Shown here piece after piece: positions 1 to 41,992 of a stretch of DNA of 44,680 nucleotides. Origin of the DNA: a virus. A program made the position numbers and the translations under genes. The notes below the pieces were generated by a model, which saw nothing but the letters and a program-made list of their open reading frames with translations, was not told where the DNA came from and ran no database searches. Within the stretch, counting starts at the first letter, position 1, and each line of letters begins with the position of its first letter. The stretch is from positions 1 to 44,680 of the IMG/VR virus record IMGVR_UViG_3300033068_000459. One strand, 5' to 3'.

Positions 1-208
1 ACGGCAATGCGCGGGTGTACGGCGATGCGTGGGTGTACGGCAATGCGCGGGTGTACGGCGATGCGTGGGTGTACGGCGATGCGCGGGTGTACGGCAATGC
101 GCGGGTGTACGGCGATGCGCGGGTGTACGGCGATGCGCGGGTGTACGGCAATGCGCGGGTGTACGGCAATGCGCGGGTGTACGGCAATGCGCGGGTGTAC
201 GGCGATGG
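1..208. repeat. 18-bp tandem repeat GTGTACGGC[G/A]ATGCG[C/T]GG (continues from 44515..44680)
   Basis: Read directly. Units are perfect except for two two-state positions, and the last unit degenerates at ~209. Nt 1-72 are identical to nt 44609-44680. Confidence 0.95.
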
Positions 209-443
209 CCTGATCTTCTGGGCTTCAAAAGTCGGCTCTGAAAACGGTACTTTGACCGTCTACAACTCGACAGACAATGCGTTGCTTGTCACGCGGGGAT
301 GTTTCCTCGGGACCGTCGATGAATTCCTTGCGGCTTCAGAAAAGAAGCATGACGAAGATACGCACCTCGAATACCGATTGTTGATTGAGGTTGCTCATTC
401 AAGGATCACACGCGCACGCGCAAAACTGGAGAACACAAAATGA
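1..443 (+). CDS. Hexapeptide-repeat protein, 3' part (same gene as 44359..44680; crosses the window junction in frame)
   Basis: Frame 3 is open from nt 3 (GNARVYGDAW...) to TGA 441-443. The last base of the window (t) plus nt 1-2 (ac) gives TAC, which restores the V-Y-G repeat. About 11 repeat units are followed by a 78-aa non-repeat C-terminus (LIFWASKVGSENGTLTVY...). Confidence 0.75.
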   Translation, partial: GNARVYGDAWVYGNARVYGDAWVYGDARVYGNARVYGDARVYGDARVYGNARVYGNARVYGNARVYGDGLIFWASKVGSENGTLTVYNSTDNALLVTRGCFLGTVDEFLAASEKKHDEDTHLEYRLLIEVAHSRITRARAKLENTK

Positions 444-862: not shown

Positions 863-1222
863 ATGAGCATTGACAATCTGACTTTTGGCGAGCTGAAGCA
901 AATCGCCGCCATGTTTTCCGGCCAGCAGGCCAAATCTTCCGAACACCCGATGGTCGGTCAATACGTGATCGCCCGTTGCTACTCGGCGGGCGTTCATGCT
1001 GGCGAAGTCGTGAGCGTGGATGGCGAAAACGTCATCTTGAAGGATTCTCGCCGACTGTGGTCTTGGAAAGCTCAAGATGGCGTGGCTCTTTCGGGCGTTG
1101 CCCAGCATGGCATCCAAAACCAATCCTGCAAAATTGATACTCAGAATCCGATGATCTATCTGACTGGTGTTTGTGAGTTGATCCCATGCACTCGGACTGC
1201 CAAGGAGAGTATTAATGCCTAA
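863..1222 (+). CDS. Hypothetical protein
   Basis: AGGAGAA lies 7-8 nt upstream of the ATG. 119 aa. The stop overlaps the next start. Confidence 0.7.
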   Translation: MSIDNLTFGELKQIAAMFSGQQAKSSEHPMVGQYVIARCYSAGVHAGEVVSVDGENVILKDSRRLWSWKAQDGVALSGVAQHGIQNQSCKIDTQNPMIYLTGVCELIPCTRTAKESINA

Positions 1223-1496
1223 CAAGGTGTTTCGCTCCGGCGACGGATCCGGCTACGGCGACGGATCCGGCGACGGATCCGGCTACGGCTACGGCGACGG
1301 ATCCGGCTACGGCGACGGATCCGGCGACGGATCCGGCTACGGCTACGGATCCGGCTACGGCGACGGATCCGGCTACGGCGACGGATCCGGCGACGGCGAC
1401 GGATCCGGCGACGGATCCGGCTACGGCGACGGATCCGGCTACGGCTACGGCGACGGATCCGGCTACGGCTACGGCGACGGATCCGGCAAAGGATGA
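1215..1496 (+). CDS. Gly/Asp/Ser/Tyr low-complexity repeat protein, (GDGSGY)n
   Basis: The ATG overlaps the upstream stop region and the stop overlaps the next ATG (ATGA), so it appears translationally coupled on both sides. 93 aa, almost entirely GDGSGY/GYGY units. Confidence 0.55.
   Translation: MPNKVFRSGDGSGYGDGSGDGSGYGYGDGSGYGDGSGDGSGYGYGSGYGDGSGYGDGSGDGDGSGDGSGYGDGSGYGYGDGSGYGYGDGSGKG
1239..1487. repeat. Imperfect tandem array of GGCGACGGATCCGGCTAC-type units
   Basis: Read directly. About 14-15 GGATCC (each containing GATC) occur within ~250 bp. Confidence 0.9.
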
Positions 1497-1963
1497 CCAG
1501 AAAACGCACAGTACGTAGGGTATGGCAGAAGGTAAACCCAATCACTCATGCAGTGGCTGGGGCGTCTATCAAGCCAAGGTCGGAGCTTGACAAACTTCTG
1601 ATGCGCGAGCTTTCCGCCTTGGACGACATGACCCATGGAAAAGCCAGCCTGCAACAGTGGCACGACCTGGCGAACGTGGTTAACCTATGCGAAACGCTTG
1701 CGCATGAGAAAGTCGGGGCGGAGGCTTTGGAATCTTGCCGGACGGCGCAAGATGCGCTGATCGAGGCCGCGAAGAGGTTTCAGGAAACGCAGCGGATGGG
1801 CTTGTCAGGCATCGGGATTCAGGCCCTGCGGGATGTGATTTCGTATCACGACCTACAGCGCTCCAGCATCCCTCGAAGCCAGTACGAGGCGGCTATCCGG
1901 CTGACTGCGGCGCGGGTAAAAAGTGGGTACGCTACGGTTGATCTTGGGGAGATGCTCGGTTAA
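1493..1963 (+). CDS. Hypothetical protein with an arginine-rich N-terminus (MTRKRTVRRVWQK); last gene before the ORF-free region
   Basis: ATGA overlap with the upstream gene. 156 aa. No recognised catalytic motif. Its position at the early/late boundary suggests a regulator, but this is inference only. Confidence 0.7.
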   Translation: MTRKRTVRRVWQKVNPITHAVAGASIKPRSELDKLLMRELSALDDMTHGKASLQQWHDLANVVNLCETLAHEKVGAEALESCRTAQDALIEAAKRFQETQRMGLSGIGIQALRDVISYHDLQRSSIPRSQYEAAIRLTAARVKSGYATVDLGEMLG

Positions 1964-2863: not shown

Positions 2864-3301
2864 GCTGTCTTAGCTCAATTGGTAGAGCACCATACTGTAT
2901 AATGTATGTATGCACTACAACACTATGCGATACCGCCGAAGAATGGCGGAAATGAAACGGATTCTTGGCGGTCAATGCGTGGGGTGCGGGTCTGTAGATT
3001 GTTTGGAGATCCACCACAAAGTACCGGCTGATAAGTCCTTCACTCTTTCCCTTGAATTTGATAAGCCATGGAATGAAATTGAGTTAGAGCTTCGCAAATG
3101 TGAGTTGAGGTGCAAGGCTTGTCATAAGCTTGAACATGCTGCGAAGCATGGATTGGGGATGTATTCCCATCACAAGTGCCGATGTGATGTTTGCAAAAAA
3201 GCATGGAGCATTGCAACCAAGAAATACAAGCAAAAGTCCAAAGAAAAACGGCTAGCCCAAAAAATGGGAGGTCCTTGGTTCGATTCCTAGAGGCAGCACC
3301 A
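2864..3301 (+). tRNA. tRNA gene split by a ~370-nt insertion in the anticodon arm (identity not assignable)
   Basis: 5' half 2864-~2896: acceptor GCTGTCT, TA, D-arm GCTC-AATTGGTA-GAGC, A, then CCATA... 3' half ~3263-3301: ATGG-GAGGTC, T-arm CTTGG-TTCGATT-CCTAG (one T-T mismatch), acceptor AGGCAGC (7/7 pairs with the 5' strand, one G-U), discriminator A, and an encoded CCA. Confidence 0.55.
2910..3290 (+). CDS. HNH endonuclease located inside the split tRNA
   Basis: Motifs CVGCGS...EIHHKVP...CKACHKLEH, plus a C-terminal HHKCRCDVCK zinc-type motif. Visibly AT-richer than the flanks (by eye). The last ~9 codons and the TAG stop lie in the tRNA variable loop and T-arm. Confidence 0.85.
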   Translation: MHYNTMRYRRRMAEMKRILGGQCVGCGSVDCLEIHHKVPADKSFTLSLEFDKPWNEIELELRKCELRCKACHKLEHAAKHGLGMYSHHKCRCDVCKKAWSIATKKYKQKSKEKRLAQKMGGPWFDS

Positions 3302-3380
3302 AATACTAAATTCCCCATTGCAATGATGGGAGTTATAATTCCTAATACGTGCGATTAGACCGCACTATTAAGGGGTTCAA

Positions 3381-3536
3381 ATGAGTGATTTGCAAGGTAC
3401 GGCTAGTGATGCGCGGATGAAAATTCAAATCACCCGGGCTGCAACTGGCGCGGTTGAAGATTACGAATTGATCCTAACTCCGCTTCCAATCGTCCAAGAA
3501 ACCGAGGGCGATCAGCCCGAAAAGGATAGCCAATGA
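3381..3536 (+). CDS. Small hypothetical protein (51 aa)
   Basis: AAGGGG lies upstream of the ATG. The stop overlaps the next ATG (ATGA). Below the cutoff of the ORF track; translated by hand. Confidence 0.45.
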   Translation: MSDLQGTASDARMKIQITRAATGAVEDYELILTPLPIVQETEGDQPEKDSQ

Positions 3537-4114
3537 GCCTCGTAACTCACTCCGTCGCCGCGCAAAATGCCGCAACTGATGCCGTCACCGCGCAGATCGG
3601 CGCATCCGGCAACTTGGCCTTTCGATTGGCTGGGACCATTGGGTCTCCCGGCGCAGTGGCTGCTACCTTGGCGCTGTCGGCTACCGCATTCGGTGCTGCA
3701 ACTGGTGGCGTGGCAACTACCAACGCGATCACCACGAACACCAACGTTGTCGGCAATGCCTCCCCAGTGGCTACGGCAACTCTCCAGACTTCGGGCGGTA
3801 CTCCGGTGATTCACTTTGCTGTGGCGGCTTCTGTGACCACGACCATTACGGGATCGTCTGGCGCGGCAACGATCACGGTTGGCTCTGCCACTGGCTTGGC
3901 TAGTGGCATGAATGTGAGCGGCACGGGCATTGCGTCTGGCGCTTCTATTGTCAACATCACCGGCACCACTGTCACGTTGTCTGCGAACAACACGGGCGCA
4001 GTTTCTGGATCTGGCACTTTCGTGGCTGACATGACGGTCACAAACGGCCTGACATTTGCCCCCGGCGATACCGTGAGCTGCTCAAGTCTGACTTATCGTG
4101 CATTGATCGCATAA
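3533..4114 (+). CDS. Ala/Thr/Gly-rich conserved phage protein, function unknown (possibly virion or fibre associated)
   Basis: 193 aa. The N-terminal pattern AQNAATDAVTAQIGASGNLAF...ATAFGAATGG resembles a recurrent phage family that I cannot name. Confidence 0.6.
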   Translation: MSLVTHSVAAQNAATDAVTAQIGASGNLAFRLAGTIGSPGAVAATLALSATAFGAATGGVATTNAITTNTNVVGNASPVATATLQTSGGTPVIHFAVAASVTTTITGSSGAATITVGSATGLASGMNVSGTGIASGASIVNITGTTVTLSANNTGAVSGSGTFVADMTVTNGLTFAPGDTVSCSSLTYRALIA

Positions 4115-4125: not shown

Positions 4126-5940
4126 GTGGCAACCCCGACGCTGCTGAGTGTCAGTAACGTCGCGCTTCCTAACACTGCCGACTCAGGAAACGTAAGCGTT
4201 ACCGCCCCGACTGGGGCGAATGCCTGTGTCATCGGCGGGACGTTCTACGTCAGCGATAACAGCGTTGTCACGAGCCTAACGGGCTCTCAGCTAACGACAA
4301 CGACGAACGGCGGTCTGCGCACAGCTACGCCTAGCGGCGGGAACTACATGAGTTCCTATGCCCAGGCATTCCAAGTCACGGCGACCGGGTCACAGACCAT
4401 CCGGCTCCAAAAGACCGGGGGCTACTCCGAAGGGCCAACCTGCCAAATTGCATGGCTGACGGTTGATGATCCAACCGATTTTGTCAGGACGGGCGGCTTT
4501 CTGATTGACAGTCAGAACAGCTCACCGGATACCCTGACAGTCACGCTCAATAGTGCTATTACCGATCTTGTGCTCGGTATGTTTGGCACCGATGGTAGCT
4601 CTGCCGATCCTACTGCCCCGACTGGCACGACCCAACAAGGGACGATGCAGACGACGCAGTTTGACAAGTCGATCACGTTCACTGTCAACAGCCCGGGCGC
4701 ATCCACGACGACGATCACGGCAGGTAGTAGGGCTTTTCCTACACTGTTTGGCATTTCGCTTAAGGCTGGCGGCGGCGGAGCCACAACTCACGCAGCTACT
4801 GGCGCATTGGTCGGCTCCGGCTCTACGGTGTCTGGATCGTCGGCAAGAACTCGGTCGCATGGATCGGGCGGTACGCTTACCGGCCCTGGTTCTGCGATTG
4901 TTGGAAGTTCGCAACACAATGCGCCTCACGCCTCCAGCGCGGTATTGTCCGGCGCTGGAGCATTGGTTTCGGGATCAGCAAGCAGGACTAGGCAGCATGC
5001 CACCTCGGGAATTTTGGTGGGGTCGGGTGCTGCTGTATCGGGATCAGCCAATCGAACGCGTAGCCACGCGGGAGCTGGCGCGCTATCTGGTCTAGGGTCT
5101 TCGATTTCTGGATCTGCCAACAAAACGCGTCAGCACATTGGATCGGGGGCGCTTACGGGCCCCGGCTCGGCTGTTTCTGGGTCCGCAACAAGATCAAAAA
5201 TCCATGCTTCTAGCGGCGTCCTGATCGGTCTCGGTTCGGATATAGATGGAGGCGGAGCTAGAACAAGGCAGCATCCAGCATCCGCCATTCTGATCGGCCC
5301 AGGATCGACGATTCAAGGCGCTGCAAACCGAAGTGCCCCAGGTGTCCATAACGCCACTGGATCGCTTGTCGGCAAGGGTTCGGCGGTTTCAGGAGCTGCT
5401 GCACGGTCGCATATCTTCACCGTCACTGGCGCGCTGATTGGGCCGGGCTCCTACATCAGCGGCGCTGCCTCCCGAACAACGGGGGCCGTATCGCATAACG
5501 CTACGGGTGTTCTTTCTGGGCAGGGATCGGCGGTCGCTGGTACATCGGCCAGAAAGCGCACATTTGCATCATCCGGCACCCTCACAGGACAAGGCGCTAG
5601 GGTTGTCGGGACTTCCGCGAGGAAGCGGACATTTGCAGTTACTGGGGTACTGATCGGTCAAGGCTCTGCTGTTTCGGGGTCTGCTACCCGCTTCCGAGTT
5701 CATGCCGTCTCTGGTGCTTTGGTAGGCCCTGGAGCGTCTATTTCAGGGCTGGCAAGCCGAGTCAATGCGCCTGTTTCCCATGACGCCACGGCCAATCTGA
5801 TCGGTCAGGGATCATTTGTATCTGCGCAAGCCCAACTGAGCGGGTTCACGATTATCATTCAAGATTACAGGATGGTAGTTAAACCGCCACGACGAAACTG
5901 GATTGCCCAGCCGCCGCGCCGCAACTGGACTGCAAGATGA
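4126..5940 (+). CDS. Large repeat protein: N-terminal ~220-aa domain, ~15 tandem 23-residue repeats, duplicated PPRRNW tail
   Basis: GTG start. 604 aa. Repeat consensus is H-x3-G-x-L-x-G-x-G-S-x-V-S-G-S-A-x-R-T-R-x. The C-terminus reads VKPPRRNWIAQPPRRNWTAR. Confidence 0.7.
   Translation: MATPTLLSVSNVALPNTADSGNVSVTAPTGANACVIGGTFYVSDNSVVTSLTGSQLTTTTNGGLRTATPSGGNYMSSYAQAFQVTATGSQTIRLQKTGGYSEGPTCQIAWLTVDDPTDFVRTGGFLIDSQNSSPDTLTVTLNSAITDLVLGMFGTDGSSADPTAPTGTTQQGTMQTTQFDKSITFTVNSPGASTTTITAGSRAFPTLFGISLKAGGGGATTHAATGALVGSGSTVSGSSARTRSHGSGGTLTGPGSAIVGSSQHNAPHASSAVLSGAGALVSGSASRTRQHATSGILVGSGAAVSGSANRTRSHAGAGALSGLGSSISGSANKTRQHIGSGALTGPGSAVSGSATRSKIHASSGVLIGLGSDIDGGGARTRQHPASAILIGPGSTIQGAANRSAPGVHNATGSLVGKGSAVSGAAARSHIFTVTGALIGPGSYISGAASRTTGAVSHNATGVLSGQGSAVAGTSARKRTFASSGTLTGQGARVVGTSARKRTFAVTGVLIGQGSAVSGSATRFRVHAVSGALVGPGASISGLASRVNAPVSHDATANLIGQGSFVSAQAQLSGFTIIIQDYRMVVKPPRRNWIAQPPRRNWTAR
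4788..5838. repeat. Degenerate ~69-nt coding tandem repeats (~15 units)
   Basis: The periodicity is read from the translated protein. The DNA copies have diverged. Confidence 0.8.
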
Positions 5941-6284
5941 TGAACCAATTCCCAATTTCGACCATCGGTCCGCTGGACACCGCAGAAATCAAGCCTGCCT
6001 ACTTCCCATTCTCCAAGGAAGTTGCAAGCACGACCACGTTAATCAGCGCGACAGTGGAAGTAGAGTTGATTTCAGGAGCAGACCCCGACCCGCAAGGGAT
6101 GGTCGTCGGGGCTGCCGTGATCGACAACACGCAAAAGCTCATCATGCAGCGATTGACAGGTGCAGGCCGGCATGGCAACACTTACAATATTCGCTGTATA
6201 GCCACCGACAACCTTGGGAACATCAGCGTCGTGGCCGCAATTCTGCCGGTTGTCTTCCTAGTCACTGGCGAACCCACCCCATAA
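5937..6284 (+). CDS. Hypothetical protein (115 aa)
   Basis: The start overlaps the upstream stop (ATGATGA). Coding-like composition. Confidence 0.6.
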   Translation: MMNQFPISTIGPLDTAEIKPAYFPFSKEVASTTTLISATVEVELISGADPDPQGMVVGAAVIDNTQKLIMQRLTGAGRHGNTYNIRCIATDNLGNISVVAAILPVVFLVTGEPTP

Positions 6285-6299
6285 CATAGGGAAAACACC

Positions 6300-6548
6300 A
6301 TGGCAACCATTGCAAGCGCAGTCAATACCCCGTTCACCCCGGCCGCTACACCGTTTTATGCCCAAGTGACGGGCGGTGTCGCTATCCTCCAGTCCCGAGG
6401 CAACGGAGCCGCCGCATGGTCAGCAGGCAAGCCTATCGGACCTGCGTCGGAAAACGGCGGAGCGATGATCGTGCAAAACCCAGTGGCAGCAGTAGACTAT
6501 CAATTTGTTGCTGTATCTGGTACACCAGTGGTTCTCGCCACTCAATAA
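6300..6548 (+). CDS. Hypothetical protein (82 aa)
   Basis: ATG 15 nt after the upstream stop. Coding-like composition. Confidence 0.55.
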   Translation: MATIASAVNTPFTPAATPFYAQVTGGVAILQSRGNGAAAWSAGKPIGPASENGGAMIVQNPVAAVDYQFVAVSGTPVVLATQ

Positions 6549-6594
6549 CGGCAAAGCCCCAAAGAGGGCGCGCCAAAACATAGGACAGGAAGAA

Positions 6595-6951
6595 ATGAAA
6601 AAACTGATCGCTACAGCGGCTTTGGCCGTTTTGCCCTTCGCAGCCAGCGCGGATGGCTCGTTCATGAATACACATACCCTGCTCATGAATATGAACCACA
6701 TCGATATGACCCTCATGTCGTATGGGTACATCGCCGGGGTGGCAGACGCCGAGGATGGGCAGTTTTACTGCCTGCCATCTACCGGAATGAGTGCAACCAC
6801 TCTCGCTAGCTATGTGGTCCGAGAGCATCGCAGCCGGGCGGGCAAGACAGATCATCTTGAGCAGTCGGCACGGTCTTTCATCCGCACGGCTCTGTCAAAC
6901 GCTTTCCCGTGCATGGGGAGTAAACCTTATGCGGGGTTGCGGAAACAATGA
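6595..6951 (+). CDS. Secreted Rap1a/Tai-family-like protein (T6SS amidase-immunity-like fold)
   Basis: Internal ATG with AGGA upstream. Signal peptide MKKLIATAALAVLPFAASA. Motifs GYIAGVAD, a CLPS...(helix) region, and a C-terminal ALSNAFPC match my recollection of the Rap1a/Tai family. Confidence 0.55.
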   Translation: MKKLIATAALAVLPFAASADGSFMNTHTLLMNMNHIDMTLMSYGYIAGVADAEDGQFYCLPSTGMSATTLASYVVREHRSRAGKTDHLEQSARSFIRTALSNAFPCMGSKPYAGLRKQ

Positions 6952-7352
6952 CCCCAGCAAACCAAGAGTTCACCCATAAGCCCGAAGAGGGTCAGTACGG
7001 CGACTGCCAGAGGGCAGTAATCGCATCCTTGCTCGACTTGCCGATTTCGGATGTCCCGCACTTTCTAGCGGTGTCGAAAAACGATGCGACGATCTATTGG
7101 GAATCTGTGCAGGCTTTCTGCCGCTCGCATGGCTACGTATATCTGACAGTAGCTAAAAATTCTGGCTCAGCGTTCTTTGGGGACGATGGGCCTGTCTATC
7201 ACGAAATCAGCGGGCCTTCGCCTCGCGGTGGCGGGGTAACCCATGCTGTTGTCGGATGTAATGGGGAAGTGGTGTTTGATCCGCATCCATCCCGCGCAGG
7301 CTTGGCCGGTGACCCTATGGAATGGCAACATGCCTATTTGGTGAAGGCTTGA
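6948..7352 (+). CDS. Small predicted papain-fold Cys-His(-Asp) hydrolase
   Basis: ATGA overlap with the upstream gene. GDC(20)QRAVIASLL followed by VTH(99)AVVG..GEVVFD(111)PHP resembles the C39-like / NlpC-P60-like catalytic arrangement. Confidence 0.5.
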   Translation: MTPANQEFTHKPEEGQYGDCQRAVIASLLDLPISDVPHFLAVSKNDATIYWESVQAFCRSHGYVYLTVAKNSGSAFFGDDGPVYHEISGPSPRGGGVTHAVVGCNGEVVFDPHPSRAGLAGDPMEWQHAYLVKA

Positions 7353-7354
7353 GC

Positions 7355-7966
7355 ATGAACGCGGACCAGAAATTTCTCTTTGACCAGCTAACCCAGCTAC
7401 AACAGCGAGTAGCCACTAACGTGCTGGCTGGGATGACTCAGCGAGCCGCCTATCGACTTGCCGGGGGTCAGGCCGAAACGGACGAGGGGGCGGATTCTTC
7501 TTGCTCAGAAATCTTGAGCAATCCCAAGGTGTCCGCCTTTATGGATGCAATGAAGGAAGAGGCCGTTTCCGAGGCCATCATGAGCCGTAAAGAGGCCATG
7601 GAGAAGCTTTCTTTGCTCGCCCGCACTGACCTGAAGGACTTAGTAGATTTCGGCTCCTATGAGCTAGGAATTGATGAAGAGTCGGGGAATCCGATCATTC
7701 AGGCCGCATGGAAAATCAAGCCGCAAGCGCTTCAAGACCCGAAGCAGATGGCGGCCATCTCCGAGCTGACCGCTGGGAAGGATGGGATCAAGATCAAGAC
7801 TCATAGCCAATTGGACGCCATCAAGCAACTGGCGAAGATGCAAGGGTGGGAGTCGGCTCAGAAGATTGATCTATCGAGCAAAGATGGAACCATGAGCCCC
7901 AAGGGCCGAGTATTGGACGATTTCTACAGCAAGCCGGATGTACCAACTCAATCCGATCCTTCGTGA
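7355..7966 (+). CDS. terS: Terminase small subunit
   Basis: N-terminal HTH-type motif ...MTQRAAYRLAGGQAETDEGADSSCSEILSNPKV... is typical of Terminase_2-type TerS. It lies directly upstream of TerL. Confidence 0.8.
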   Translation: MNADQKFLFDQLTQLQQRVATNVLAGMTQRAAYRLAGGQAETDEGADSSCSEILSNPKVSAFMDAMKEEAVSEAIMSRKEAMEKLSLLARTDLKDLVDFGSYELGIDEESGNPIIQAAWKIKPQALQDPKQMAAISELTAGKDGIKIKTHSQLDAIKQLAKMQGWESAQKIDLSSKDGTMSPKGRVLDDFYSKPDVPTQSDPS

Positions 7967-9308
7967 GTTCTGGTCTACCCGAAAGCCATACAAGCTACTG
8001 AAAGGCGGGCGCTTTAGCTCAAAGACTCAGGACGCGGGTGGGATGGCGGCATTCTTGGCCCGCAACTACACGGTCAAGTTTCTTTGCATCCGGCAGTTTC
8101 AGAACCGGATTGCCGACTCGGTTTATACCGTCATCAAGCAGAAGATCGAGGCGGCAGGCTGGCGCAGCGAGTTTGATATCGGTGTTTCGACCATTCGACA
8201 TAAGGTGACTGGTTCTGAATTCCTGTTCTATGGCATCGCCCGGAACATCGAGGATATCAAGGGTACGGAAGGCGTAGATATCTGCTGGATCGAGGAAGGC
8301 GAGGGACTGACTGAGGAACAATGGTCCATCATTGACCCGACCATCCGCAAAGAAGGCAGCGAGATATGGGTGCTTTGGAACCCTCATCTACAGACTGACT
8401 TCGTACAGGCCAAGCTGCCTAGCCTGCTGGGTGATGACTGCATCATCAAGCACATCAACTACACGGACAACCCATTTCTGTCCGAGACGGCTAGGCTCAA
8501 GGCTGAACGGCTGAAAGACGCCGACCCAGATGCCTACGCGCATATCTATCAGGGTATACCCCTGAACAACGATGATGCGGCGGTCATCAAATATTCGTGG
8601 ATTGAAGCGGCGATTGATGCTCACAAAAAGCTGGGGATAGACCTTTCTGGTGCTCGTTCGGTGGGGTATGACGTTGCCGATAGTGGAGCAGACAAGAACG
8701 CCTGTTCAAACTTTGACGGTGCTATCTGCGTGGAGCTGGACGAATGGGCCGCGCCGGAGGATGAGCTGACCCAATCCACGCGCAGGGCATGGGCGCATGT
8801 GAAGGGCGGCAGGCTGATCTATGACAGCATTGGTGTGGGGGCTCATGTAGGGTCAACCCTTAGAGAGTCAGGTATTCCAACTGGCTATTTCAAATTCAAC
8901 GCTGGTGGCGCGGTGATCCAGCCCGAGAAGGAATACGCCCCAAAGATCAAAAACAAAGACAAATTCGAGAATCTGAAAGCTCAGGCGTGGCAGGATGTGG
9001 CCGACCGATTCCGAAACACCTATAACGCCGTGACGAAAGGCGAGAAGTTCGACGCGTCTGACCTAATCAGCATCAGCGGCGATATTAAGAAGCTGGAGCA
9101 ATTGAAGACCGAACTGTCTACGCCAATGAAGCGTTACAGCAAGCGTGGCATGGACATGGTTGAGACCAAGGATGAAATGGCAAAACGCGGTGTTGCATCG
9201 CCTAACCTCGCGGATTCATTCATCATGGGCGCATGCCCTCATTTGGTTGTTGGCATCCCAATGCGTATTAACAAAAGCACATTGGCGCAAGCTGCAAGGC
9301 GACGTTAG
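7938..9308 (+). CDS. terL: Terminase large subunit (PBSX/Terminase_3-like)
   Basis: 456 aa. N-terminal LLKGGRFSSKTQ (Walker A-like), then IRQFQNRIADS..., CWIEEGE (Walker B), plus a C-terminal nuclease-type domain. Confidence 0.9.
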   Translation: MYQLNPILREFWSTRKPYKLLKGGRFSSKTQDAGGMAAFLARNYTVKFLCIRQFQNRIADSVYTVIKQKIEAAGWRSEFDIGVSTIRHKVTGSEFLFYGIARNIEDIKGTEGVDICWIEEGEGLTEEQWSIIDPTIRKEGSEIWVLWNPHLQTDFVQAKLPSLLGDDCIIKHINYTDNPFLSETARLKAERLKDADPDAYAHIYQGIPLNNDDAAVIKYSWIEAAIDAHKKLGIDLSGARSVGYDVADSGADKNACSNFDGAICVELDEWAAPEDELTQSTRRAWAHVKGGRLIYDSIGVGAHVGSTLRESGIPTGYFKFNAGGAVIQPEKEYAPKIKNKDKFENLKAQAWQDVADRFRNTYNAVTKGEKFDASDLISISGDIKKLEQLKTELSTPMKRYSKRGMDMVETKDEMAKRGVASPNLADSFIMGACPHLVVGIPMRINKSTLAQAARRR

Positions 9309-9344
9309 AATAACGCCAGCAAATTGCACGCAATGGGGTAATTA

Positions 9345-11069
9345 ATGGATGATGAAATCAAGGGCCGGGCCAAAGGCGGAAAAGCCGCAGCGGAGAAACT
9401 GACGCCGGAGGAACGATCCGAGCGTGCGCGCAAGGGCGCTAAGGCCCGATGGGCTGCAAAAGATGCAAAGCCCGTGGTGAAGCGCGGTATCTCTGAGGGC
9501 ATGGCTGCTGCCGTCAGCAAAGCCCAAGGCGTCAACACTCCCCCTAAGTTCATGCCCCCCTTGCTTCCGCCTGGGGTTGTGCCAGAAGGAGCCAAGCCAG
9601 CCATTGCAATGGACTACGCCCCCGGGGTGTACGACTTCGCCAATGCAGCATGGGGGAATAGCTACTTCACGCCGTTTCCGGGTTATCCATACCTTGCCGG
9701 ACTAGCTACCCGTGCGGAATACCGTAACTTCGCGGACTCGCTGTCGTCTGAAATCACTCGGGAGTGGATCAAGTTCAAAGGGGCGTCTGATACGGATGGA
9801 GACGGTCAGGCGGAGCAAGACACGATCCGCATCGCCCAGCTCGAAGATGCGGTGAAGAAGCATAACCTCAAAGACCTGTTCAAGCTGGCAGCGGCTCAGG
9901 ATTGCTTCTTTGGGCGCGCTCAGATCACGATCAACCTCAAAGGGGCCGATCCTAAGCTGCCGTTGATTCTGGACCCGCGCACGATCAAGAAAGGTTCTTT
10001 GGAGAGCTTCACGTGCGTGGAAGCCATGTGGACCACGCCAAGCGCCTACAACTCTAATGACCCGACCGCGCCGGACTTCTACAAGCCGCGTGAATGGTTT
10101 GTGCTCGGGCAGCAGGTGCACGCCTCGCGCATCATGACCATCATCACGCGCCCCCTGCCTGACATGCTGAAACCGGCTTACAACTTCTCTGGCATGAGTT
10201 TGAGCCAGTTGGCGGAGCCCTACGTTAACAACTGGCTTCGCACCCGGCAAAGCATTGCGGACCTCGTTAACAACTTCTCAATTACTGCCCTGAAAACGAA
10301 CATGGGTCAGGTGTTGCAAGGCCAGTGCGATGGGTCCGATGTGTTCGCCCGTGCTGACTTGTTCACACTCACCCGCTCGAATCGCGGCCTGATGCTGCTG
10401 GACAAAGAATCGGAAGAGCTGGATCAGGTCAACACTCCGCTTTCTGGCTTGCATGAGTTGCAGGCCCAAGCACTTGAACATTTGTGCACTGTATCGAGAA
10501 TGCCTGCCGTGATCCTGACCGGCGTTTCTCCGTCCGGCCTGAACGCATCGAGCGAGGGCGAAATCCGTGTGTTCTATGACTGGATCAGTTCGCAGCAGAA
10601 TGCTTTCTGGCGTCACCCGCTGGAGGCGTGCATCAAGGTCATCATGCTTGACCTGTGGGGAGAAATTGACGACACGATCAGCTTTGAATTCAACCCGCTT
10701 TGGCAGATCAGCGCGAAAGAAGAAGCCGAGATTCGCCAGATGAACGCCAATAGCGCGGCCACGTACCTGACAAACAGTGTGCTGTCTGCCGAGGAAGTGC
10801 GCGAGAACCTTGCCGCTGATCCGAACAGCGGTTATTCGGGCATTGACGTTTCAGAGGTGCCGGAGCCGCAGGAAGATCCAATGGCGGGTCTGAATCCTTT
10901 TGGCGATCCTTCGGGACAAGATCCCAGCCCGCTGGACGATCAGGCGCAAGACAAGAGTGTGAGCGAAGCCCAGCGCAAGGCAATGGCGGCAGCCGCTGCC
11001 GGTCACAGCACCCTCGGGATTCCAAAGAAGGTTGGCGAGGAATTCAAACGTGCCGACGAAGCAGCCTAA
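9345..11069 (+). CDS. Portal protein (DUF1073-type) with an ~88-aa basic N-terminal extension
   Basis: 574 aa, immediately after TerL. The recognisable portal-like region begins near M89 (9609). The N-terminus is K/R/A-rich (GGKAAAEKLTPEERSERARKGAKARWA). Confidence 0.8.
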   Translation: MDDEIKGRAKGGKAAAEKLTPEERSERARKGAKARWAAKDAKPVVKRGISEGMAAAVSKAQGVNTPPKFMPPLLPPGVVPEGAKPAIAMDYAPGVYDFANAAWGNSYFTPFPGYPYLAGLATRAEYRNFADSLSSEITREWIKFKGASDTDGDGQAEQDTIRIAQLEDAVKKHNLKDLFKLAAAQDCFFGRAQITINLKGADPKLPLILDPRTIKKGSLESFTCVEAMWTTPSAYNSNDPTAPDFYKPREWFVLGQQVHASRIMTIITRPLPDMLKPAYNFSGMSLSQLAEPYVNNWLRTRQSIADLVNNFSITALKTNMGQVLQGQCDGSDVFARADLFTLTRSNRGLMLLDKESEELDQVNTPLSGLHELQAQALEHLCTVSRMPAVILTGVSPSGLNASSEGEIRVFYDWISSQQNAFWRHPLEACIKVIMLDLWGEIDDTISFEFNPLWQISAKEEAEIRQMNANSAATYLTNSVLSAEEVRENLAADPNSGYSGIDVSEVPEPQEDPMAGLNPFGDPSGQDPSPLDDQAQDKSVSEAQRKAMAAAAAGHSTLGIPKKVGEEFKRADEAA

Positions 11070-11906: not shown

Positions 11907-12161
11907 ATGGACAAAGACTACGATGAATTGGATCACGCCCTTAACAATTTGATGTGGGTTTGGTCCCAATACGGCGAGGGCTCACATGACCGCCACGATG
12001 AAAATGGGAAGTTGGTCAGTGTTTATCTGGAACATCGGTGCATGCAGGCCGGAGAGCAGGCTGGGGAAATGCTTGAAAAACACGGTCTTGCAGTTGATAT
12101 TGGATGGGGCCTTGAGTTGACCGAAAAGGGGATTGCGCTCTATCTAAAGGACTTCGGCTAA
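11907..12161 (+). CDS. Hypothetical protein (84 aa)
   Basis: ORF with an ATG 11 nt after the upstream stop, within the head module. Confidence 0.55.
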   Translation: MDKDYDELDHALNNLMWVWSQYGEGSHDRHDENGKLVSVYLEHRCMQAGEQAGEMLEKHGLAVDIGWGLELTEKGIALYLKDFG

Positions 12162-29208: not shown

Positions 29209-29529
29209 ATGTTTGATATTGATCCGAAGGCCGCTGAATCAGTTGCACGTAGCCCTTTCACTGCTGGATTGTTTGGTGCCCTTGTTCTTTCATTTCGTGG
29301 TGGCGTTGAGACCAGTTGGAAAGAACGAGTTGTCACCACGTTGTCAGGCTGTTTAATGGCCGGATTTTTGAGCCCAGCGGCTGCGGAGTATTTCGCGATT
29401 CACACGCCTGCCATGCAATCGGGAATGGCTTTCTTCGTGGGGCTGTTTGGTCTGAATCTCATGTCTGCTGTGCTCCGATGGATCAAGACGGCAAACCTCT
29501 CAGACTATATCCCTTGGGGTAAAAAATGA
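29209..29529 (+). CDS. Putative holin (about 3 TM segments)
   Basis: 106 aa with hydrophobic segments FTAGLFGALVLSF, VVTTLSGCLMAGFL and MAFFVGLFGLNLMSAVL, and a charged C-terminus. It is the first gene of the lysis cassette. Confidence 0.6.
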   Translation: MFDIDPKAAESVARSPFTAGLFGALVLSFRGGVETSWKERVVTTLSGCLMAGFLSPAAAEYFAIHTPAMQSGMAFFVGLFGLNLMSAVLRWIKTANLSDYIPWGKK

Positions 29530-29930
29530 GTGAACTGCACACCTTGAACGGGCTGACCTCTTTTCTCTGCGCGGTGATTCTCGCCGGAGTTGTCCTGAGC
29601 CCTCGTGTAAAAGACGGGGTAATCATCAAGGTAGGGCTGATTGCAATGATTGGCTCGTTTCTCATTACGGCCATGCTGACGTTTGAGAATTCGCGCAATT
29701 GGGATGCTTATGCAATGGCAAACCTAATCAATCGCGGTGGTCTATTGGTTTCTGGATTGGGTGTGTGGATGAGGCTGCACAAATTCCTGCGCCGGTCAAA
29801 AAAAAACTCCGATGCACATAGCCCCAGGACGAATCAGATTCTTTCAGGGATGACCAGCCAAGCAAGCGACCTCATGGACCTTCTCTATGACTCAAAACCC
29901 AGTGTTACTGACAAAGAGAAAACCCATTGA
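29526..29930 (+). CDS. Membrane protein (second holin / antiholin candidate)
   Basis: ATGA overlap with the upstream gene. 134 aa with 3-4 hydrophobic segments. Confidence 0.55.
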   Translation: MSELHTLNGLTSFLCAVILAGVVLSPRVKDGVIIKVGLIAMIGSFLITAMLTFENSRNWDAYAMANLINRGGLLVSGLGVWMRLHKFLRRSKKNSDAHSPRTNQILSGMTSQASDLMDLLYDSKPSVTDKEKTH

Positions 29931-30117
29931 ATTCAAGCCTCCAGTTATCACGCCACCAAACCGGTTTGATAGCATAGACTCTGCGCTTCATGACATCCAG
30001 CAGAGTTGTAAAACCTCATGGTCAGAGCATGAAATCATCCGAAAACTAGAAGAAGCGCGTAATATGCGCAGAGATGAAAAAGGAGTGGTTTCTCCTACGT
30101 CGGAAAGATGGGCATGA
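29887..30117 (+). CDS. Hypothetical protein (76 aa)
   Basis: It overlaps the upstream gene by 44 nt. The stop overlaps the amidase ATG (ATGA). No clear RBS. Confidence 0.4.
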   Translation: MTQNPVLLTKRKPIEFKPPVITPPNRFDSIDSALHDIQQSCKTSWSEHEIIRKLEEARNMRRDEKGVVSPTSERWA

Positions 30118-30647
30118 AAAGATTCACAGTCACGGCAGGACATGGCGAGAAAGACCCCGGCGCAGTTGCCAAAACCGGCGAGACGGAAGCCGCTTTGATG
30201 ACTGAGCTTCGGGATCTGGTGGCTGACATCCTGATCGGCAAAGGCCATGAGGTCAAAACGGATGGGGCCAAATGGGAAAACTGGCCGCTTGTTCGGGCCT
30301 TGAAACTAATCCCTCAATCGGATGTTGCTATTGAGCTACACATGAACGCTTCGGACAATCCGAATGCCAAAGGTGTTGAGGTCATCAGCCTTCCGGCTCA
30401 AAAGGATTTGTCCCGCGAGATTGCCCGCAGGATCGCCCATACGCTCGAAACGCCTGTTCGTGGTGCTGGCGGATGGATCGATCAGTCTCAGAGCGCCAGA
30501 GGCCGTCTGGCGTTCGTCAATGCGGGGGGATTGATTGTTGAGGTCTGCTTTCTGAGCAACTCGGAAGAGCTGGCGAAATACAAGGACCGCAAGCCTCTGA
30601 TCGCAGCCGCCATTGCTGAAAGCCTCGCACCACCGGAGTGGAAATAA
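30114..30647 (+). CDS. Endolysin: N-acetylmuramoyl-L-alanine amidase (Amidase_3-like)
   Basis: Motifs TAGHGEKDPGA, IELHMNAS and VEVCFLSN. The ATG at 30114 (GGAAAG upstream, ATGA coupling) is preferred over 30108. Confidence 0.85.
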   Translation: MKRFTVTAGHGEKDPGAVAKTGETEAALMTELRDLVADILIGKGHEVKTDGAKWENWPLVRALKLIPQSDVAIELHMNASDNPNAKGVEVISLPAQKDLSREIARRIAHTLETPVRGAGGWIDQSQSARGRLAFVNAGGLIVEVCFLSNSEELAKYKDRKPLIAAAIAESLAPPEWK

Positions 30648-30856
30648 TGAGCTTGGATAAGGCCATCAAATACGGGAAAGAGCACCGCAAGGAATATGCC
30701 GAACGTGGCAAGCCAGGTCGATACGATAAAACTTGCAGGCCGCACGGATCGGGGAAAAGTCGCCCGTGTCCGTATTGTGAGAGAGGCCGGTTGTTTCGCT
30801 TCGCTCGGCAGATAGGTGCGCCAAGCAGAACTAAAGAGGGCGGCGGCTACGCCTGA
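30647..30856 (+). CDS. Small basic Cys-containing protein within the lysis cassette (69 aa)
   Basis: Coupled on both sides (TAATG upstream, TGATG downstream). Contains CRPHG...CPYC. Confidence 0.5.
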   Translation: MSLDKAIKYGKEHRKEYAERGKPGRYDKTCRPHGSGKSRPCPYCERGRLFRFARQIGAPSRTKEGGGYA

Positions 30857-31320
30857 TGATCGGCCTTCTGTTCAACCGCTTCACGCTATACGCCGCACTC
30901 GCCGCTGCGGCTTTTGCTGGGGCCTATGCCTATCGATATAGCCTGATCAAGATGGGTTACGATCAAGCCATGGCGCAGGTTCGTGAGGCTGAGACGGACA
31001 AGCTCCGAGAGCTGCTGAAAGAGAATTCCCGCCTTTTTGGCGTAGTCCAAGGATTAAACGATGTTGCTCAAAAACAGAAGTCTGAAATTTCCGCTTTTCG
31101 CGCTCGCCATCGTGCTAACGAGCAGCGGTTGCGCGATCAAGAAGCAGAGCATCAGCGTAGACTCGCCGCCGCCTCTGCCGAAGCCGTCCGTGGATACGCC
31201 TCGTTCCTCGACGGACATATTGAAGAGTGCCGATCAATGGTTGCTGACTTCGCAGGAGAAGCTGCGAGCTGCGCGAGCACTGCTAAAACCCTGATCGACT
31301 ACATCAAAGAGCTTCCCTAG
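30856..31320 (+). CDS. i-spanin (Rz-like)
   Basis: An N-terminal TM segment (LYAALAAAAFAGAYAY) is followed by a coiled-coil-like periplasmic domain. An o-spanin ORF is embedded within it. Confidence 0.8.
   Translation: MIGLLFNRFTLYAALAAAAFAGAYAYRYSLIKMGYDQAMAQVREAETDKLRELLKENSRLFGVVQGLNDVAQKQKSEISAFRARHRANEQRLRDQEAEHQRRLAAASAEAVRGYASFLDGHIEECRSMVADFAGEAASCASTAKTLIDYIKELP
31061..31294 (+). CDS. o-spanin (Rz1-like lipoprotein), embedded in the +1 frame of the i-spanin gene
   Basis: Signal peptide plus lipobox-like ...ALAIVLTSSG|C, with a Pro-rich mature part (DSPPPLPKPSVDTP). Confidence 0.75.
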   Translation: MLLKNRSLKFPLFALAIVLTSSGCAIKKQSISVDSPPPLPKPSVDTPRSSTDILKSADQWLLTSQEKLRAARALLKP

Positions 31321-40300: not shown

Positions 40301-40656
40301 GGGATCACCTTTCTTTCCATTCGTCTATTGGCTTCCACGGTCCGCCATACTTCAATCTTTGCTTGAGCGCCGACAATCAGCCATCTCAACCGCTCTTCTT
40401 CCTCAACCGCAGCGCGCAAGCCTTTGAGTAGAGCCTGATATTCGGTGTCAGCGTAGGCGTCTCGTTCTTGCGCACCGATAGCAGATGTACCAGAAACCTC
40501 GGCGGCTTTCATGCAAAGCGCTTTCTTGCTTTTGCGGTACTCCTCAATATAAATTCTTTCAGCTTTGGCTTTGGCGTAAACCGCAGCGTTATCGCGAATA
40601 AAATCGAGAGCCCGAAACACATTAAATTCGGCATCTTGATTCATAGCCAAGCCCAT
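40297..40656 (-). CDS. Hypothetical protein (119 aa)
   Basis: Part of the operon chain; helical. Confidence 0.55.
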   Translation of the reverse strand: MGLAMNQDAEFNVFRALDFIRDNAAVYAKAKAERIYIEEYRKSKKALCMKAAEVSGTSAIGAQERDAYADTEYQALLKGLRAAVEEEERLRWLIVGAQAKIEVWRTVEANRRMERKVIP

Positions 40657-41362: not shown

Positions 41363-41700
41363 AGTTGTTGAGGAACAAGCCTGCCAAGGTGAACATGCTT
41401 GCCAGCCAAGGATTCAGCAGATGGCATGTTACTTTTTAGCGCCATGGCTTCACATCTGGCGCACAAAAGTTTTCCATCTGGTGGAGCATCAAGAAACGTG
41501 AATTTTTTTGTCCCAGTGAAGGTATTGCCGCACCAGTTCTCAACGGCAATATGTGACTTGTACTTTTCGCTGATCTTGTGAGTTGTCACATAGCGCGGCC
41601 TATGAATAAGAATGGCCTTTGTGTTTTCAATGAATGGACTGCATTCTTTCCATGCGATGCCAAAACGATGATTTTTGGCTTTGCTCAGAGCGACTTTCAC
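41350..41700 (-). CDS. Hypothetical protein (116 aa)
   Basis: Part of the operon chain. Confidence 0.55.
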   Translation of the reverse strand: MKVALSKAKNHRFGIAWKECSPFIENTKAILIHRPRYVTTHKISEKYKSHIAVENWCGNTFTGTKKFTFLDAPPDGKLLCARCEAMALKSNMPSAESLAGKHVHLGRLVPQQLCCQ

Positions 41701-41960: not shown

Positions 41961-41992
41961 CTTCGGGTGTCCGTATTGGTTGAGATGTGCAT

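What the first reader, a model, noticed from the sequence alone, without database searches (positions are those of the whole stretch)
6595..7352. Rap1a/Tai-like periplasmic protein translationally coupled to a small Cys-His hydrolase, just upstream of terS
Seen: 6595..6951 encodes a signal peptide followed by GYIAGVAD...CLPS...ALSNAFPC. 6948..7352 overlaps it by ATGA and carries GDC(20)Q...VTH(99)AVVG...VFD(111)PHP.

Established: Rap1a/Tai-family proteins are periplasmic immunity proteins against Tae4/Ssp-type T6SS peptidoglycan amidases. Those amidases are themselves small papain/NlpC-P60-fold Cys-His enzymes.

Inference, three options:
- The pair could be a phage-borne effector/immunity-like module in the reverse order to usual (immunity first).
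- It could be a peptidoglycan-active enzyme with its own inhibitor, used at infection or lysis.
- The immunity-like protein could protect the infected host from T6SS attack, with the hydrolase unrelated.

The hydrolase has no signal peptide. The family calls are from memory of the motifs.
Basis: partly seen in the sequence, partly recalled or inferred. Interest (0 to 1): 0.65.

Follow-up and report, generated by a model that had tools for sequence, protein, structure and literature searches.

The report
Phage-borne Rap1a immunity gene, unrelated protease
A phage genome carries a stand-alone copy of a periplasmic "immunity" protein that bacteria use to neutralise cell-wall-cutting toxins injected by rivals. 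The small cysteine-protease gene beside it is an unrelated, swapped-in phage gene, not its partner.

Summary
Both ORFs are real, at the stated coordinates, and overlap by ATGA.

**ORF1 (6595..6951)** is a genuine Rap1a/Tai4-family protein.
- It passes the Pfam PF18602 threshold (41.7 bits; cut-off 27.7).
- The only significant PDB matches of its AlphaFold model are Serratia Rap1a and Agrobacterium Tai4.
- It has a Sec-type signal peptide and both family cysteines.

**ORF2 (6948..7352)** belongs to a very large uncharacterised phage family (phrog_5845; 3306 representative clusters).
- Cys20, His99 and Asp111 are invariant.
- The confident model is papain-like and closest to C39 peptidase domains.
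- It has no detectable relation to Tae4 (hhalign probability 0.4%; no Pfam hit).
- It has no signal peptide, and the family also occurs in phages of Gram-positive hosts.

**The two genes are not a module.**
- None of 82 loci with ORF2 relatives has a Rap1a-like gene within 4 kb.
- None of 11 phage contigs with Rap1a-like genes has an ORF2 relative.
- DNA homology to the closest relative breaks exactly at ORF2's borders, where that phage has an unrelated 67-aa gene. A third relative has Rap1a overlapping terS directly.

Best reading: an orphan type VI secretion system (T6SS) amidase-immunity accessory gene, next to an independent cytoplasmic cysteine peptidase. It is a new member of a known kind, of modest interest.

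The parts
6595..6951 (+). ORF1: 118-aa Rap1a/Tai4-family periplasmic protein. Predicted Sec signal peptide at residues 1-19; family cysteines C59 and C106.
   Evidence: Pfam PF18602 41.7 bits against a 27.7 cut-off. phmmer to PDB: Rap1a 4bi8/3zfi E=0.005 and Tai4 6ijf E=0.035, with both Cys aligned. AF2 pLDDT 81; the Foldseek top 7 are all Rap1a/Tai4 (TM 0.72-0.79 normalised by target length), and the next hit has E=2.9.
6948..7352 (+). ORF2: 134-aa predicted cytoplasmic papain-like cysteine peptidase with a C20/H99/D111 triad. Member of phrog_5845. A window-specific cassette unrelated to ORF1.
   Evidence: phrog_5845 at 1.9e-33. 3306 representative clusters. C20, H99, D111 and P114 invariant in 46 diverse members. 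AF2 pLDDT 89.9. Best PDB matches are the ComA C39 peptidase domain (E=0.037, prob 0.97), Josephin-2 and PCAT1. No Pfam, NCBIfam or PADLOC hit.
6948..6951 (+). ATGA stop/start overlap between ORF1 and ORF2.
   Evidence: Read from the sequence. The same 4-nt overlap joins the Rap1a-like gene to a 67-aa gene in L004 and to terS in L090. It is therefore a property of the slot, not of this particular pair.
7358..7966 (+). terS (small terminase subunit), the conserved downstream neighbour of the Rap1a slot.
   Evidence: Pfam Terminase_2 at 7.5e-15. phrog_51. 80% identical to the L004 terS.
6300..6548 (+). 82-aa ORF, the conserved upstream neighbour of the Rap1a slot. No family assigned.
   Evidence: 95% identical in L004 and 62% in L090, in the same position. 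No Pfam, PHROG or NCBIfam hit.

Best explanation
The pair is two independent phage accessory genes that happen to be adjacent in a variable slot just upstream of terS.

ORF1 is an orphan Rap1a/Tai4-family immunity protein. The inferred mechanism runs as follows:
- It is exported by the Sec pathway.
- It is stabilised by a C59-C106 disulfide and forms a dimer in the periplasm.
- It sterically blocks the active site of an incoming Tae4/Ssp1-type peptidoglycan DL-endopeptidase delivered by a neighbour's T6SS.
- This protects the phage's host cell, whether a lysogen or a cell in productive infection.

ORF2 is a cytoplasmic papain-like cysteine peptidase or isopeptidase. Cys20 sits at a helix N-terminus and His99 and Asp111 on adjacent strands. 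It belongs to a widespread phage family normally found among early/replication ('nin-like') genes. It acts on an unknown cytoplasmic host or phage substrate and has no functional tie to ORF1.

Shown: the family and fold assignments, the compartment signals, the lack of co-occurrence and the cassette swap. Inferred: export, disulfide, dimer, the identity of the target effector, and ORF2's catalysis and substrate.
For: ORF1 is Rap1a/Tai4:
- Pfam above the gathering score.
- PDB sequence hits with both Cys aligned.
- The predicted fold matches only Rap1a (3zfi, 4bi8) and Tai4 (6ije, 6ijf).
- Rap1a is a periplasmic, disulfide-bonded (C78-C122) dimer that blocks the Ssp1 active site (PMC3852654).

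Independence of the two genes:
- 82 loci with ORF2 relatives have no Rap1a-like ORF within 4 kb. This held with a narrow HMM, an HMM that included Rap1a and Tai4 fragments, a regex, and a 37-sequence family HMM.
- 11 distinct phage contigs with Rap1a-like genes have no ORF2 relative.
- No neighbour family of any kind is conserved around ORF2 relatives; the most frequent occurs in 10 of 82 loci.
- Window-versus-L004 DNA homology covers 5923-6548, 6576-6945 and 7354-7890. It breaks exactly over ORF2, which L004 replaces with an unrelated 67-aa gene.
- In L090 the Rap1a-like gene overlaps terS directly.
- In L088 a Rap1a-like gene (40% identical) sits elsewhere, between MuF and the scaffold gene.

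ORF2 is cytoplasmic and not cell-wall-specific:
- It has no signal peptide.
- The family occurs in Arthrobacter, Gordonia and Mycobacterium phages as well as Caulobacter, Pseudomonas and Xanthomonas phages.
- Relatives sit next to DnaB, NinB and RecA-dependent nuclease genes.
- The phage has its own lysis cassette elsewhere: a holin plus an Amidase_3 endolysin at 29209-31320.

Precedent: orphan immunity genes are common (PMC10539506 abstract), and prophage-borne T6SS toxin/immunity clusters are documented (PMC11481896).
Against: - No cognate effector is known. By my reading of the alignment against the interface list in PMC3852654, only about two of eight Rap1a contact positions after the first Cys are conserved, and Gln84, which contacts the catalytic His, aligns to Ser66.
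- No promoter-like or terminator-like site flanks the pair, so ORF1 looks co-transcribed with packaging genes rather than expressed from a lysogeny-active promoter of its own.
- No integrase or tRNA was found, so lysogeny is unproven.
- The host is only inferred to be Pseudomonas-like: the portal is 71.5% identical to that of Pseudomonas phage Amjad_SA.
- The order and the 4-nt overlap mimic the canonical rap1a-ssp1 arrangement in Serratia.
- ORF2's substrate is entirely unknown.
Confidence: 0.6

Rival explanations
1. Effector/immunity-like or enzyme/inhibitor module. ORF2 would be a toxic or peptidoglycan-active Cys-His hydrolase that ORF1 neutralises, used at infection, at lysis or against competitors.
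For: The gene order and 4-nt overlap match the canonical Rap1a-then-Tae4 pair in Serratia, and Agrobacterium has the same order. ORF2 has a Cys-His-Asp triad and a size (134 aa) near that of Tae4 (about 160 aa). A papain-like protease toxin/immunity pair (9l5u) appears far down the Foldseek list (rank 44, E=1.9).
Against: - Co-occurrence is 0 of 82 and 0 of 11.
- There is an exact cassette swap at ORF2's borders.
- The compartments do not match: ORF1 has a signal peptide and ORF2 has none.
- ORF2 shows no Tae4 similarity by Pfam, BLASTP or hhalign.
- ORF2 lacks the conserved Tae4 Cys-x3-Cys disulfide loop.
- The ORF2 family occurs in phages of Gram-positive hosts, where T6SS amidase attack does not apply.
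- The phage already has a holin and an Amidase_3 endolysin.
Confidence: 0.04
2. ORF1 is a periplasmic inhibitor of a peptidoglycan hydrolase other than a T6SS effector. Candidates are NlpC/P60- or CHAP-type tail lysins of superinfecting phages (superinfection exclusion, or protection from lysis-from-without) and a host NlpC/P60 endopeptidase. It would be expressed during the lytic cycle with the late genes.
For: ORF1 lies in an uninterrupted + strand gene string with terS and has no promoter or terminator of its own. No lysogeny genes were detected. The phage clade of Rap1a-like proteins (107-118 aa) is distinct from the bacterial ones at about 30% identity. The inhibitory interface is not conserved with Rap1a. 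Rap1a-like genes recur near packaging and head genes in relatives.
Against: Every characterised member of the fold neutralises a T6SS Tae4-family effector. There is no evidence that any phage tail lysin is Rap1a-sensitive. The promoter scan covers only a sigma-70 consensus and is weak negative evidence.
Confidence: 0.15
3. ORF1 is a hitch-hiking or decaying orphan gene with no current function in the phage.
For: It has no partner effector, is rare in phages (no tblastn hit in 50,697 GenBank phage records) and sits in a variable slot.
Against: The ORF, signal peptide, both Cys and the core motifs are intact across relatives at 83%, 62%, 60% and 40% identity in at least five different phage contigs and three genomic positions. 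This indicates purifying selection and repeated retention.
Confidence: 0.1

Closest known systems
Rap1a (Serratia marcescens SMA2260) and Tai4 (Agrobacterium tumefaciens): T6SS amidase-immunity proteins, Pfam PF18602
   Same: Sec signal peptide, a small all-helical fold, the conserved Cys pair and the YIAGVAD / FPC motifs. Pfam score above threshold. The predicted structure superposes at 1.9-2.7 A rmsd.
   Different: - It is encoded on a phage and has no Tae4/Ssp1 gene next to it.
- It is only 24-32% identical.
- The effector-contacting positions after the first Cys are mostly different.
- The N-terminal part is shorter.
- The target is unknown.
Orphan T6SS immunity genes and mobile-element-borne T6SS toxin/immunity clusters (for example Ralstonia phiRSY1-like prophages)
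   Same: An immunity-family gene without a cognate effector, carried on a mobile element, that could protect the carrier cell from non-kin attack (PMC10539506 and PMC11481896).
   Different: Here a lone immunity gene sits in a phage packaging-gene operon rather than in a vgrG-linked auxiliary cluster. No Rap1a/Tai4 homologue was found in 50,697 deposited phage genomes.
C39 peptidase domains of bacteriocin ABC transporters (ComA PEP 3k8u, PCAT1) and other clan-CA cysteine peptidases (Josephin)
   Same: ORF2's predicted fold and its Cys, His, Asp order. The Cys sits at a helix N-terminus and the His and Asp on successive strands.
   Different: The similarity is weak (Foldseek E=0.037, TM 0.54, 17% identity). 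There is no sequence-level hit to any Pfam peptidase family. ORF2 is a stand-alone 134-aa protein, not fused to a transporter. No Gly-Gly leader substrate is evident.
Tae4/Ssp1 T6SS peptidoglycan DL-endopeptidases (Pfam PF14113)
   Same: A small Cys-His(-Asp) enzyme encoded immediately downstream of a Rap1a-family gene with a 4-nt overlap.
   Different: No sequence or profile similarity. No conserved disulfide loop. No linkage to Rap1a in any relative. The family is present in phages of Gram-positive hosts.
phrog_5845 and homologues in cultured phages (CcrColossus, phiRSL1, Lemuria, Gordonia Troje and others)
   Same: ORF2 is a clear member (E=1.9e-33). BFVD structural matches have TM 0.80-0.86 normalised by query length.
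   Different: Nothing distinctive apart from its unusual position just upstream of terS instead of in an early/replication region.

Membership tests
Rap1a/Tai4 immunity family (PF18602) | Sequence match to the family profile above the curated threshold | tested here: met
   41.7 bits against a gathering score of 27.7, E=1.7e-10. All relatives found carry PF18602.
Rap1a/Tai4 immunity family (PF18602) | Small all-alpha Rap1a fold | tested here: met
   The AF2 model has pLDDT above 90 over the core. The Foldseek top 7 are all Rap1a/Tai4, with TM 0.72-0.79 normalised by target length.
Rap1a/Tai4 immunity family (PF18602) | N-terminal signal peptide (periplasmic location) and the conserved Cys pair forming the intramolecular disulfide | tested here: met
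   MKKLIATAALAVLPFAASA|DG was read from the sequence; no predictor was run. C59 and C106 align with Rap1a C78 and C122. Actual export and oxidation were not tested.
Rap1a/Tai4 immunity family (PF18602) | Adjacent cognate Tae4/Ssp1-family effector within or near a T6SS cluster | tested here: not met
   The downstream gene is not Tae4-like and the window is a phage genome. By this criterion ORF1 is an orphan member; orphan members also exist in bacteria (L094).
Rap1a/Tai4 immunity family (PF18602) | Binds and neutralises a Tae4-family amidase | not testable with these tools
   This needs binding, competition or complex-modelling assays. The interface residues are poorly conserved relative to Rap1a.
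Tae4/Ssp1 amidase effectors (PF14113), considered for ORF2 | Sequence or profile similarity to Tae4 | tested here: not met
   No Pfam hit at E<=1. None in 46 diverse family members. hhalign probability 0.3-0.4%. BLASTP E=0.8.
Tae4/Ssp1 amidase effectors (PF14113), considered for ORF2 | Conserved Cys-x3-Cys disulfide loop lining the active site; genetic linkage to an immunity gene | tested here: not met
   No such conserved Cys pair in the ORF2 family, unlike Tae4. 0 of 82 loci are linked to a Rap1a-like gene.
Clan CA papain-like cysteine peptidases (C39-like), considered for ORF2 | Conserved Cys and His (plus Asp/Asn), with Cys at a helix N-terminus and His on a beta-strand | tested here: met
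   C20, H99 and D111 are invariant in 46 diverse members. Helix 20-29 and strands 98-104 and 107-110 appear in a model at pLDDT 89.9.
Clan CA papain-like cysteine peptidases (C39-like), considered for ORF2 | Significant structural or sequence match to a characterised member | tested here: inconclusive
   The best Foldseek PDB hit is the ComA C39 domain (E=0.037, prob 0.97, TM 0.54). No hit reaches E<=0.001. A profile search of PDB sequences found nothing relevant.
Clan CA papain-like cysteine peptidases (C39-like), considered for ORF2 | Peptidase activity dependent on the Cys | not testable with these tools
   This needs biochemistry with C20A and H99A mutants.

The most novel reading that the evidence does not exclude
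The small clade of phage-borne Rap1a-like proteins (107-118 aa) would be a phage-specific periplasmic shield. It would be expressed with the late/packaging genes during productive infection. Its role would be to keep the infected cell's wall intact until the phage's own holin fires, by neutralising NlpC/P60- or CHAP-type peptidoglycan endopeptidases from outside. These could be T6SS amidases of neighbouring cells or tail lysins of superinfecting phages. It would then be an anti-'lysis-from-without' factor rather than a classic lysogen-benefit gene. The clade is seen here in at least 11 viral contigs, at three or more genomic positions.
Probability: 0.15. Interest if true: 0.7.

Novelty: new member of a known kind. 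Interest (0 to 1): 0.33.

Why it matters
If ORF1 works as inferred, phages can carry single T6SS-immunity genes. These would make their host cell resistant to a rival's cell-wall amidase. That links phage carriage to the outcome of contact-dependent bacterial warfare and adds phages to the vehicles that spread orphan immunity.

The negative result matters too. A suggestive gene order (immunity gene overlapping a small Cys-His enzyme, exactly as in rap1a-ssp1) is here a by-product of cassette shuffling in a variable slot. This is a caution for guilt-by-adjacency calls in phage genomes.

Separately, ORF2 belongs to a very large phage family with an invariant Cys-His-Asp triad. The family spans Gram-positive and Gram-negative hosts and has no known substrate. 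It is a reasonable target for functional screens such as host takeover or counter-defence.

Tried and rejected
Searches that found nothing:
- megablast of 5900-9400 against 50,697 phage records: no match.
- tblastn of ORF1 against the same records: no match at E<=0.01.
- Two genome-contig scans with ORF1-clade alignments: no relative confirmed, so neither a host nor a prophage copy was identified.
- The first viral-contig scan with the 3-sequence alignment: nothing. A 10-sequence alignment then found 7 loci, of which 6 were confirmed with the family HMM.
- NCBIfam and PADLOC for both ORFs: no hits.
- A profile search of PDB sequences with the ORF2 alignment: only chance-level hits.
- Pfam on 46 diverse ORF2-family members, including longer fused ones: no informative domain, only one weak DUF6511 hit.
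- A search for a conserved neighbour of ORF2 relatives: none.
- Literature searches for phage-borne Rap1a/Tai4, and for a characterised phage cysteine protease of this family acting in counter-defence: nothing specific.

Readings rejected:
- ORF2 as the phage endolysin, because a holin plus an Amidase_3 cassette lies at 29209-31320.
- A compositional island, because GC stays flat at about 0.55 across the pair.

Full report
**1. Observation**

The window is a complete, circularly permuted phage genome of 44,680 bp. An 18-nt tandem repeat that encodes a YdcK-type beta-solenoid runs over both ends. The contig length on record for the encoded proteins equals the window length.

ORF1 is 6595..6951 (118 aa) and ORF2 is 6948..7352 (134 aa). 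Both are as described, and their stop and start overlap as ATGA. terS most likely starts at 7358, 5 nt after the ORF2 stop. It is followed by terL, the portal gene and MuF.

ORF1 begins MKKLIATAALAVLPFAASA|DG, which has the layout of a Sec signal peptide with an AXA cleavage site and no lipobox cysteine. This was read from the sequence; no predictor was run. ORF2 begins with a hydrophilic stretch and has no signal peptide.

**2. ORF1 is a genuine Rap1a/Tai4-family protein**

- Pfam PF18602 scores 41.7 bits against a gathering score of 27.7.
- phmmer against PDB sequences finds S. marcescens Rap1a (4bi8, 3zfi; E=0.005) and A. tumefaciens Tai4 (6ijf, 6ije; E=0.035). Both cysteines align: C59 with the Cys in SWCQ, and C106 with the Cys in FPC.
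- An AlphaFold2 model built on 37 family sequences has pLDDT above 90 over the helical core.
- Its seven best PDB matches are all Rap1a or Tai4 chains. E-values are 7e-4 to 7e-3, TM-scores normalised by target length are 0.72-0.79, and rmsd is 1.9-2.7 A. The next hit has E=2.9.
- Rap1a is a periplasmic, disulfide-bonded (C78-C122) dimer that plugs the Ssp1 active site (PMC3852654).
- I compared the alignment with the interface list in that paper. The contact positions after the first Cys are mostly different in ORF1. For example, Rap1a Gln84, which contacts the catalytic His, aligns with Ser66. The target specificity therefore cannot be transferred.

**3. ORF2 is a predicted papain-like cysteine peptidase of a large uncharacterised phage family, not a Tae4**

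- It hits phrog_5845 (function unknown) at 1.9e-33.
- It hits nothing in Pfam, NCBIfam or PADLOC.
- It has 340 word-index homologues and 3306 representative 50%-identity clusters at E<=1e-3.
- In 46 diverse members, C20, H99, D111 and P114 are invariant.
- The AF2 model (pLDDT 89.9, pTM 0.86) puts C20 at the N-terminus of helix 20-29, H99 on strand 98-104 and D111 just after strand 107-110. This is the classic clan-CA arrangement.
- The best PDB matches are the C39 peptidase domains of ComA and PCAT1, and Josephin-2. They are weak: best E=0.037, probability 0.97, TM 0.54.
- In BFVD it matches uncharacterised proteins of Caulobacter phage CcrColossus, Mycobacterium phage Lemuria and Ralstonia phage phiRSL1, with TM 0.80-0.86 normalised by query length.
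- tblastn finds the family in 70 cultured-phage records. These include Arthrobacter, Gordonia and Mycobacterium phages (Gram-positive hosts) as well as Caulobacter, Pseudomonas, Xanthomonas and Acinetobacter phages. A few depositors call it 'cysteine protease' or 'peptidase'.

I obtained real Tae4 sequences from the Serratia and Agrobacterium loci that encode ORF1's bacterial relatives. Against these, hhalign gives 0.3-0.4% probability and BLASTP gives E=0.8. The ORF2 family also lacks the conserved Cys-x3-Cys disulfide loop of Tae4.

**4. The two genes are not a module**

*(a) Loci with ORF2 relatives.* I examined 82 such loci: 79 of the 80 kept from 349 IMG/VR hits, plus L001-L003. None contains a Rap1a-like ORF within 4 kb. 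This was tested with a narrow HMM, with an HMM that included Rap1a and Tai4 fragments, with a motif regex, and with a 37-sequence family HMM; the best E-value was 0.66.

There is no conserved neighbour of any kind. The commonest neighbour family occurs in 10 of 82 loci. The usual setting is an early, replication or 'nin-like' region with DnaB, NinB and RecA-dependent-nuclease genes.

*(b) Phage contigs with Rap1a-like genes.* Eleven distinct contigs carry such genes: L004/5, L006/7, L088, L089, L090, L097-L101 and L103. None has an ORF2 relative.

*(c) Synteny in the closest relatives.*

| Phage | Gene order around the slot | Source |
|---|---|---|
| Window | g193, g604, g115, g82, Rap1a, ORF2, terS | |
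| L004 | g193 (98%), g555 (48%), g115 (96%), g82 (95%), an extra 84-aa gene related to g82 (45%), Rap1a (83%), unrelated 67-aa gene, terS (80%), then portal (97%) further downstream | |
| L090 | g604-like, g115, g82, Rap1a (60%), terS with a direct 4-nt overlap | |
| L088 | Rap1a-like gene (40%) placed between MuF and the scaffold gene | |

Percentages are identity to the window protein.

*(d) DNA-level break.* Window-versus-L004 homology covers 5923-6548 (89%), 6576-6945 (77%) and 7354-7890 (85%). It breaks exactly over 6946-7353, which is ORF2.

ORF2 is therefore a cassette dropped into a variable slot between a resident Rap1a-like gene and terS. The ATGA coupling is a property of the slot, since L004 and L090 show the same overlap with other genes.

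**5.

In the canonical loci the immunity gene comes first. In Serratia it overlaps the effector gene by 4 nt (L092: Rap1a 3001-3387, Tae4 3384-3875). Agrobacterium L093 has the same order. The arrangement in the window is therefore not 'reverse'; it mimics the canonical one. I regard this as coincidence, for the reasons in section 4 and because the compartments do not match, but it is why the module hypothesis keeps a few per cent.

**6. Context**

- The phage has its own lysis cassette at 29209-31320: a holin (phrog_2359), an Amidase_3 endolysin at 30108-30647, and a possible spanin. ORF2 is not needed as a lysin.
- No sigma-70-like promoter or intrinsic terminator flanks the pair.
- GC content is flat at about 0.55.
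- No integrase or tRNA was found. An RsaL-like HTH gene sits at a divergent junction at 41697-42053. The lifestyle is therefore undetermined.
- The portal's closest cultured relative is Pseudomonas phage Amjad_SA (71.5%), followed by P. syringae and Aeromonas phages. This suggests a Pseudomonas-like host.

**7. Mechanism (best reading, confidence about 0.6)**

ORF1 is exported, oxidised and dimerises in the periplasm. There it neutralises an incoming Tae4/Ssp1-type DL-endopeptidase, as an orphan immunity protein that benefits the phage's host cell. ORF2 is an independent cytoplasmic cysteine peptidase or isopeptidase with an unknown substrate.

| Status | Items |
|---|---|
| Shown | Family and fold assignments, targeting signals, lack of linkage, cassette swap |
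| Inferred | Export, disulfide, dimer, target, timing, ORF2 catalysis |

Rivals:
- An enzyme/inhibitor or effector/immunity module (about 0.04).
- ORF1 as an inhibitor of other periplasmic wall hydrolases, such as lysins of superinfecting phages or host NlpC/P60 enzymes, acting during lytic growth (about 0.15).
- A functionless passenger (about 0.1). Conservation across at least five phage contigs at 40-83% identity, with the signal peptide and both Cys intact, argues against this.

**8. Comparison and novelty**

By sequence, fold and targeting, ORF1 is a member of the Rap1a/Tai4 family. It fails the 'adjacent Tae4 effector' criterion, so it is an orphan; orphans also exist in bacteria (L094).

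Orphan immunity genes and prophage-borne T6SS toxin/immunity clusters are known (PMC10539506, PMC11481896). I found no report of, and no GenBank phage record with, a Rap1a/Tai4 homologue. This is a new member of a known kind.

ORF2 is an ordinary member of a widespread uncharacterised phage family. The pair-level hypothesis that made the finding attractive is not supported. Overall interest is modest (0.33).

Noticed in passing
window 10-288 and 44438-44680: An 18-nt tandem repeat encoding YGDARV-type hexapeptides (Pfam YdcK beta-solenoid, phrog_7964) runs over both ends of the window. The window is therefore a circularly closed or permuted genome, and ORF 15..443 is the C-terminal part of a gene cut by linearisation.
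   Followed up: partly
window 1180-1528: A second tandem array with 12/18-nt spacing (16 registers of a 115-nt reference), overlapping ORFs on both strands. Its nature is unknown.
   Followed up: no
window 4126-5940: A 604-aa Gly/Ser-rich protein made of roughly 22-aa repeats (GSGALxGxGSxVSGSAxRTRxH) with no Pfam, PHROG or NCBIfam hit. It is only 48% identical to its L004 counterpart, while the flanking genes are 95-98% identical. It may be a hypervariable receptor-binding protein. The next gene has a weak Gp77 fibre-tail adaptor hit.
   Followed up: partly
L004 6269-7390 compared with window 7938-9308: The closest relative phage has a different large terminase (33% identity, 373 aa against 456 aa), although its portal (97%), MuF (92%) and scaffold (98%) are nearly identical. 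This indicates a terminase swap within an otherwise collinear head module.
   Followed up: no
L088 6001-6324; window 11907-12161: A related phage carries its Rap1a-like gene (40% identical) between MuF and the scaffold gene. At that slot the window has an unassigned 84-aa ORF. Rap1a-like genes thus occupy at least three different variable slots in this phage group.
   Followed up: partly
window 29209-31320: A lysis cassette after the tail-fibre genes: a holin (phrog_2359), a second membrane protein, an Amidase_3 endolysin at 30108-30647, and a possible spanin at 30856-31320.
   Followed up: partly
window 2910-3290, 40641-41165, 43326-44024: Three HNH-type endonuclease genes are scattered in the non-structural part of the genome.
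   Followed up: no
L092 3001-3875 (Serratia ficaria) and L093 3001-3900 (Agrobacterium): In the canonical T6SS loci the Rap1a-family immunity gene precedes the Tae4 effector gene. In Serratia the two overlap by 4 nt. The Serratia locus also holds a second Tae4 gene and three genes of the other immunity family, Tai4 (PF16695).
   Followed up: yes
window 41697-42053: An RsaL-like/Cro-type HTH gene on the - strand abuts the start of the + strand gene string (a Sak4-like annealing protein at 42053), which may be a genetic-switch region. No integrase or tRNA was found anywhere, so the lifestyle is unresolved.
   Followed up: partly
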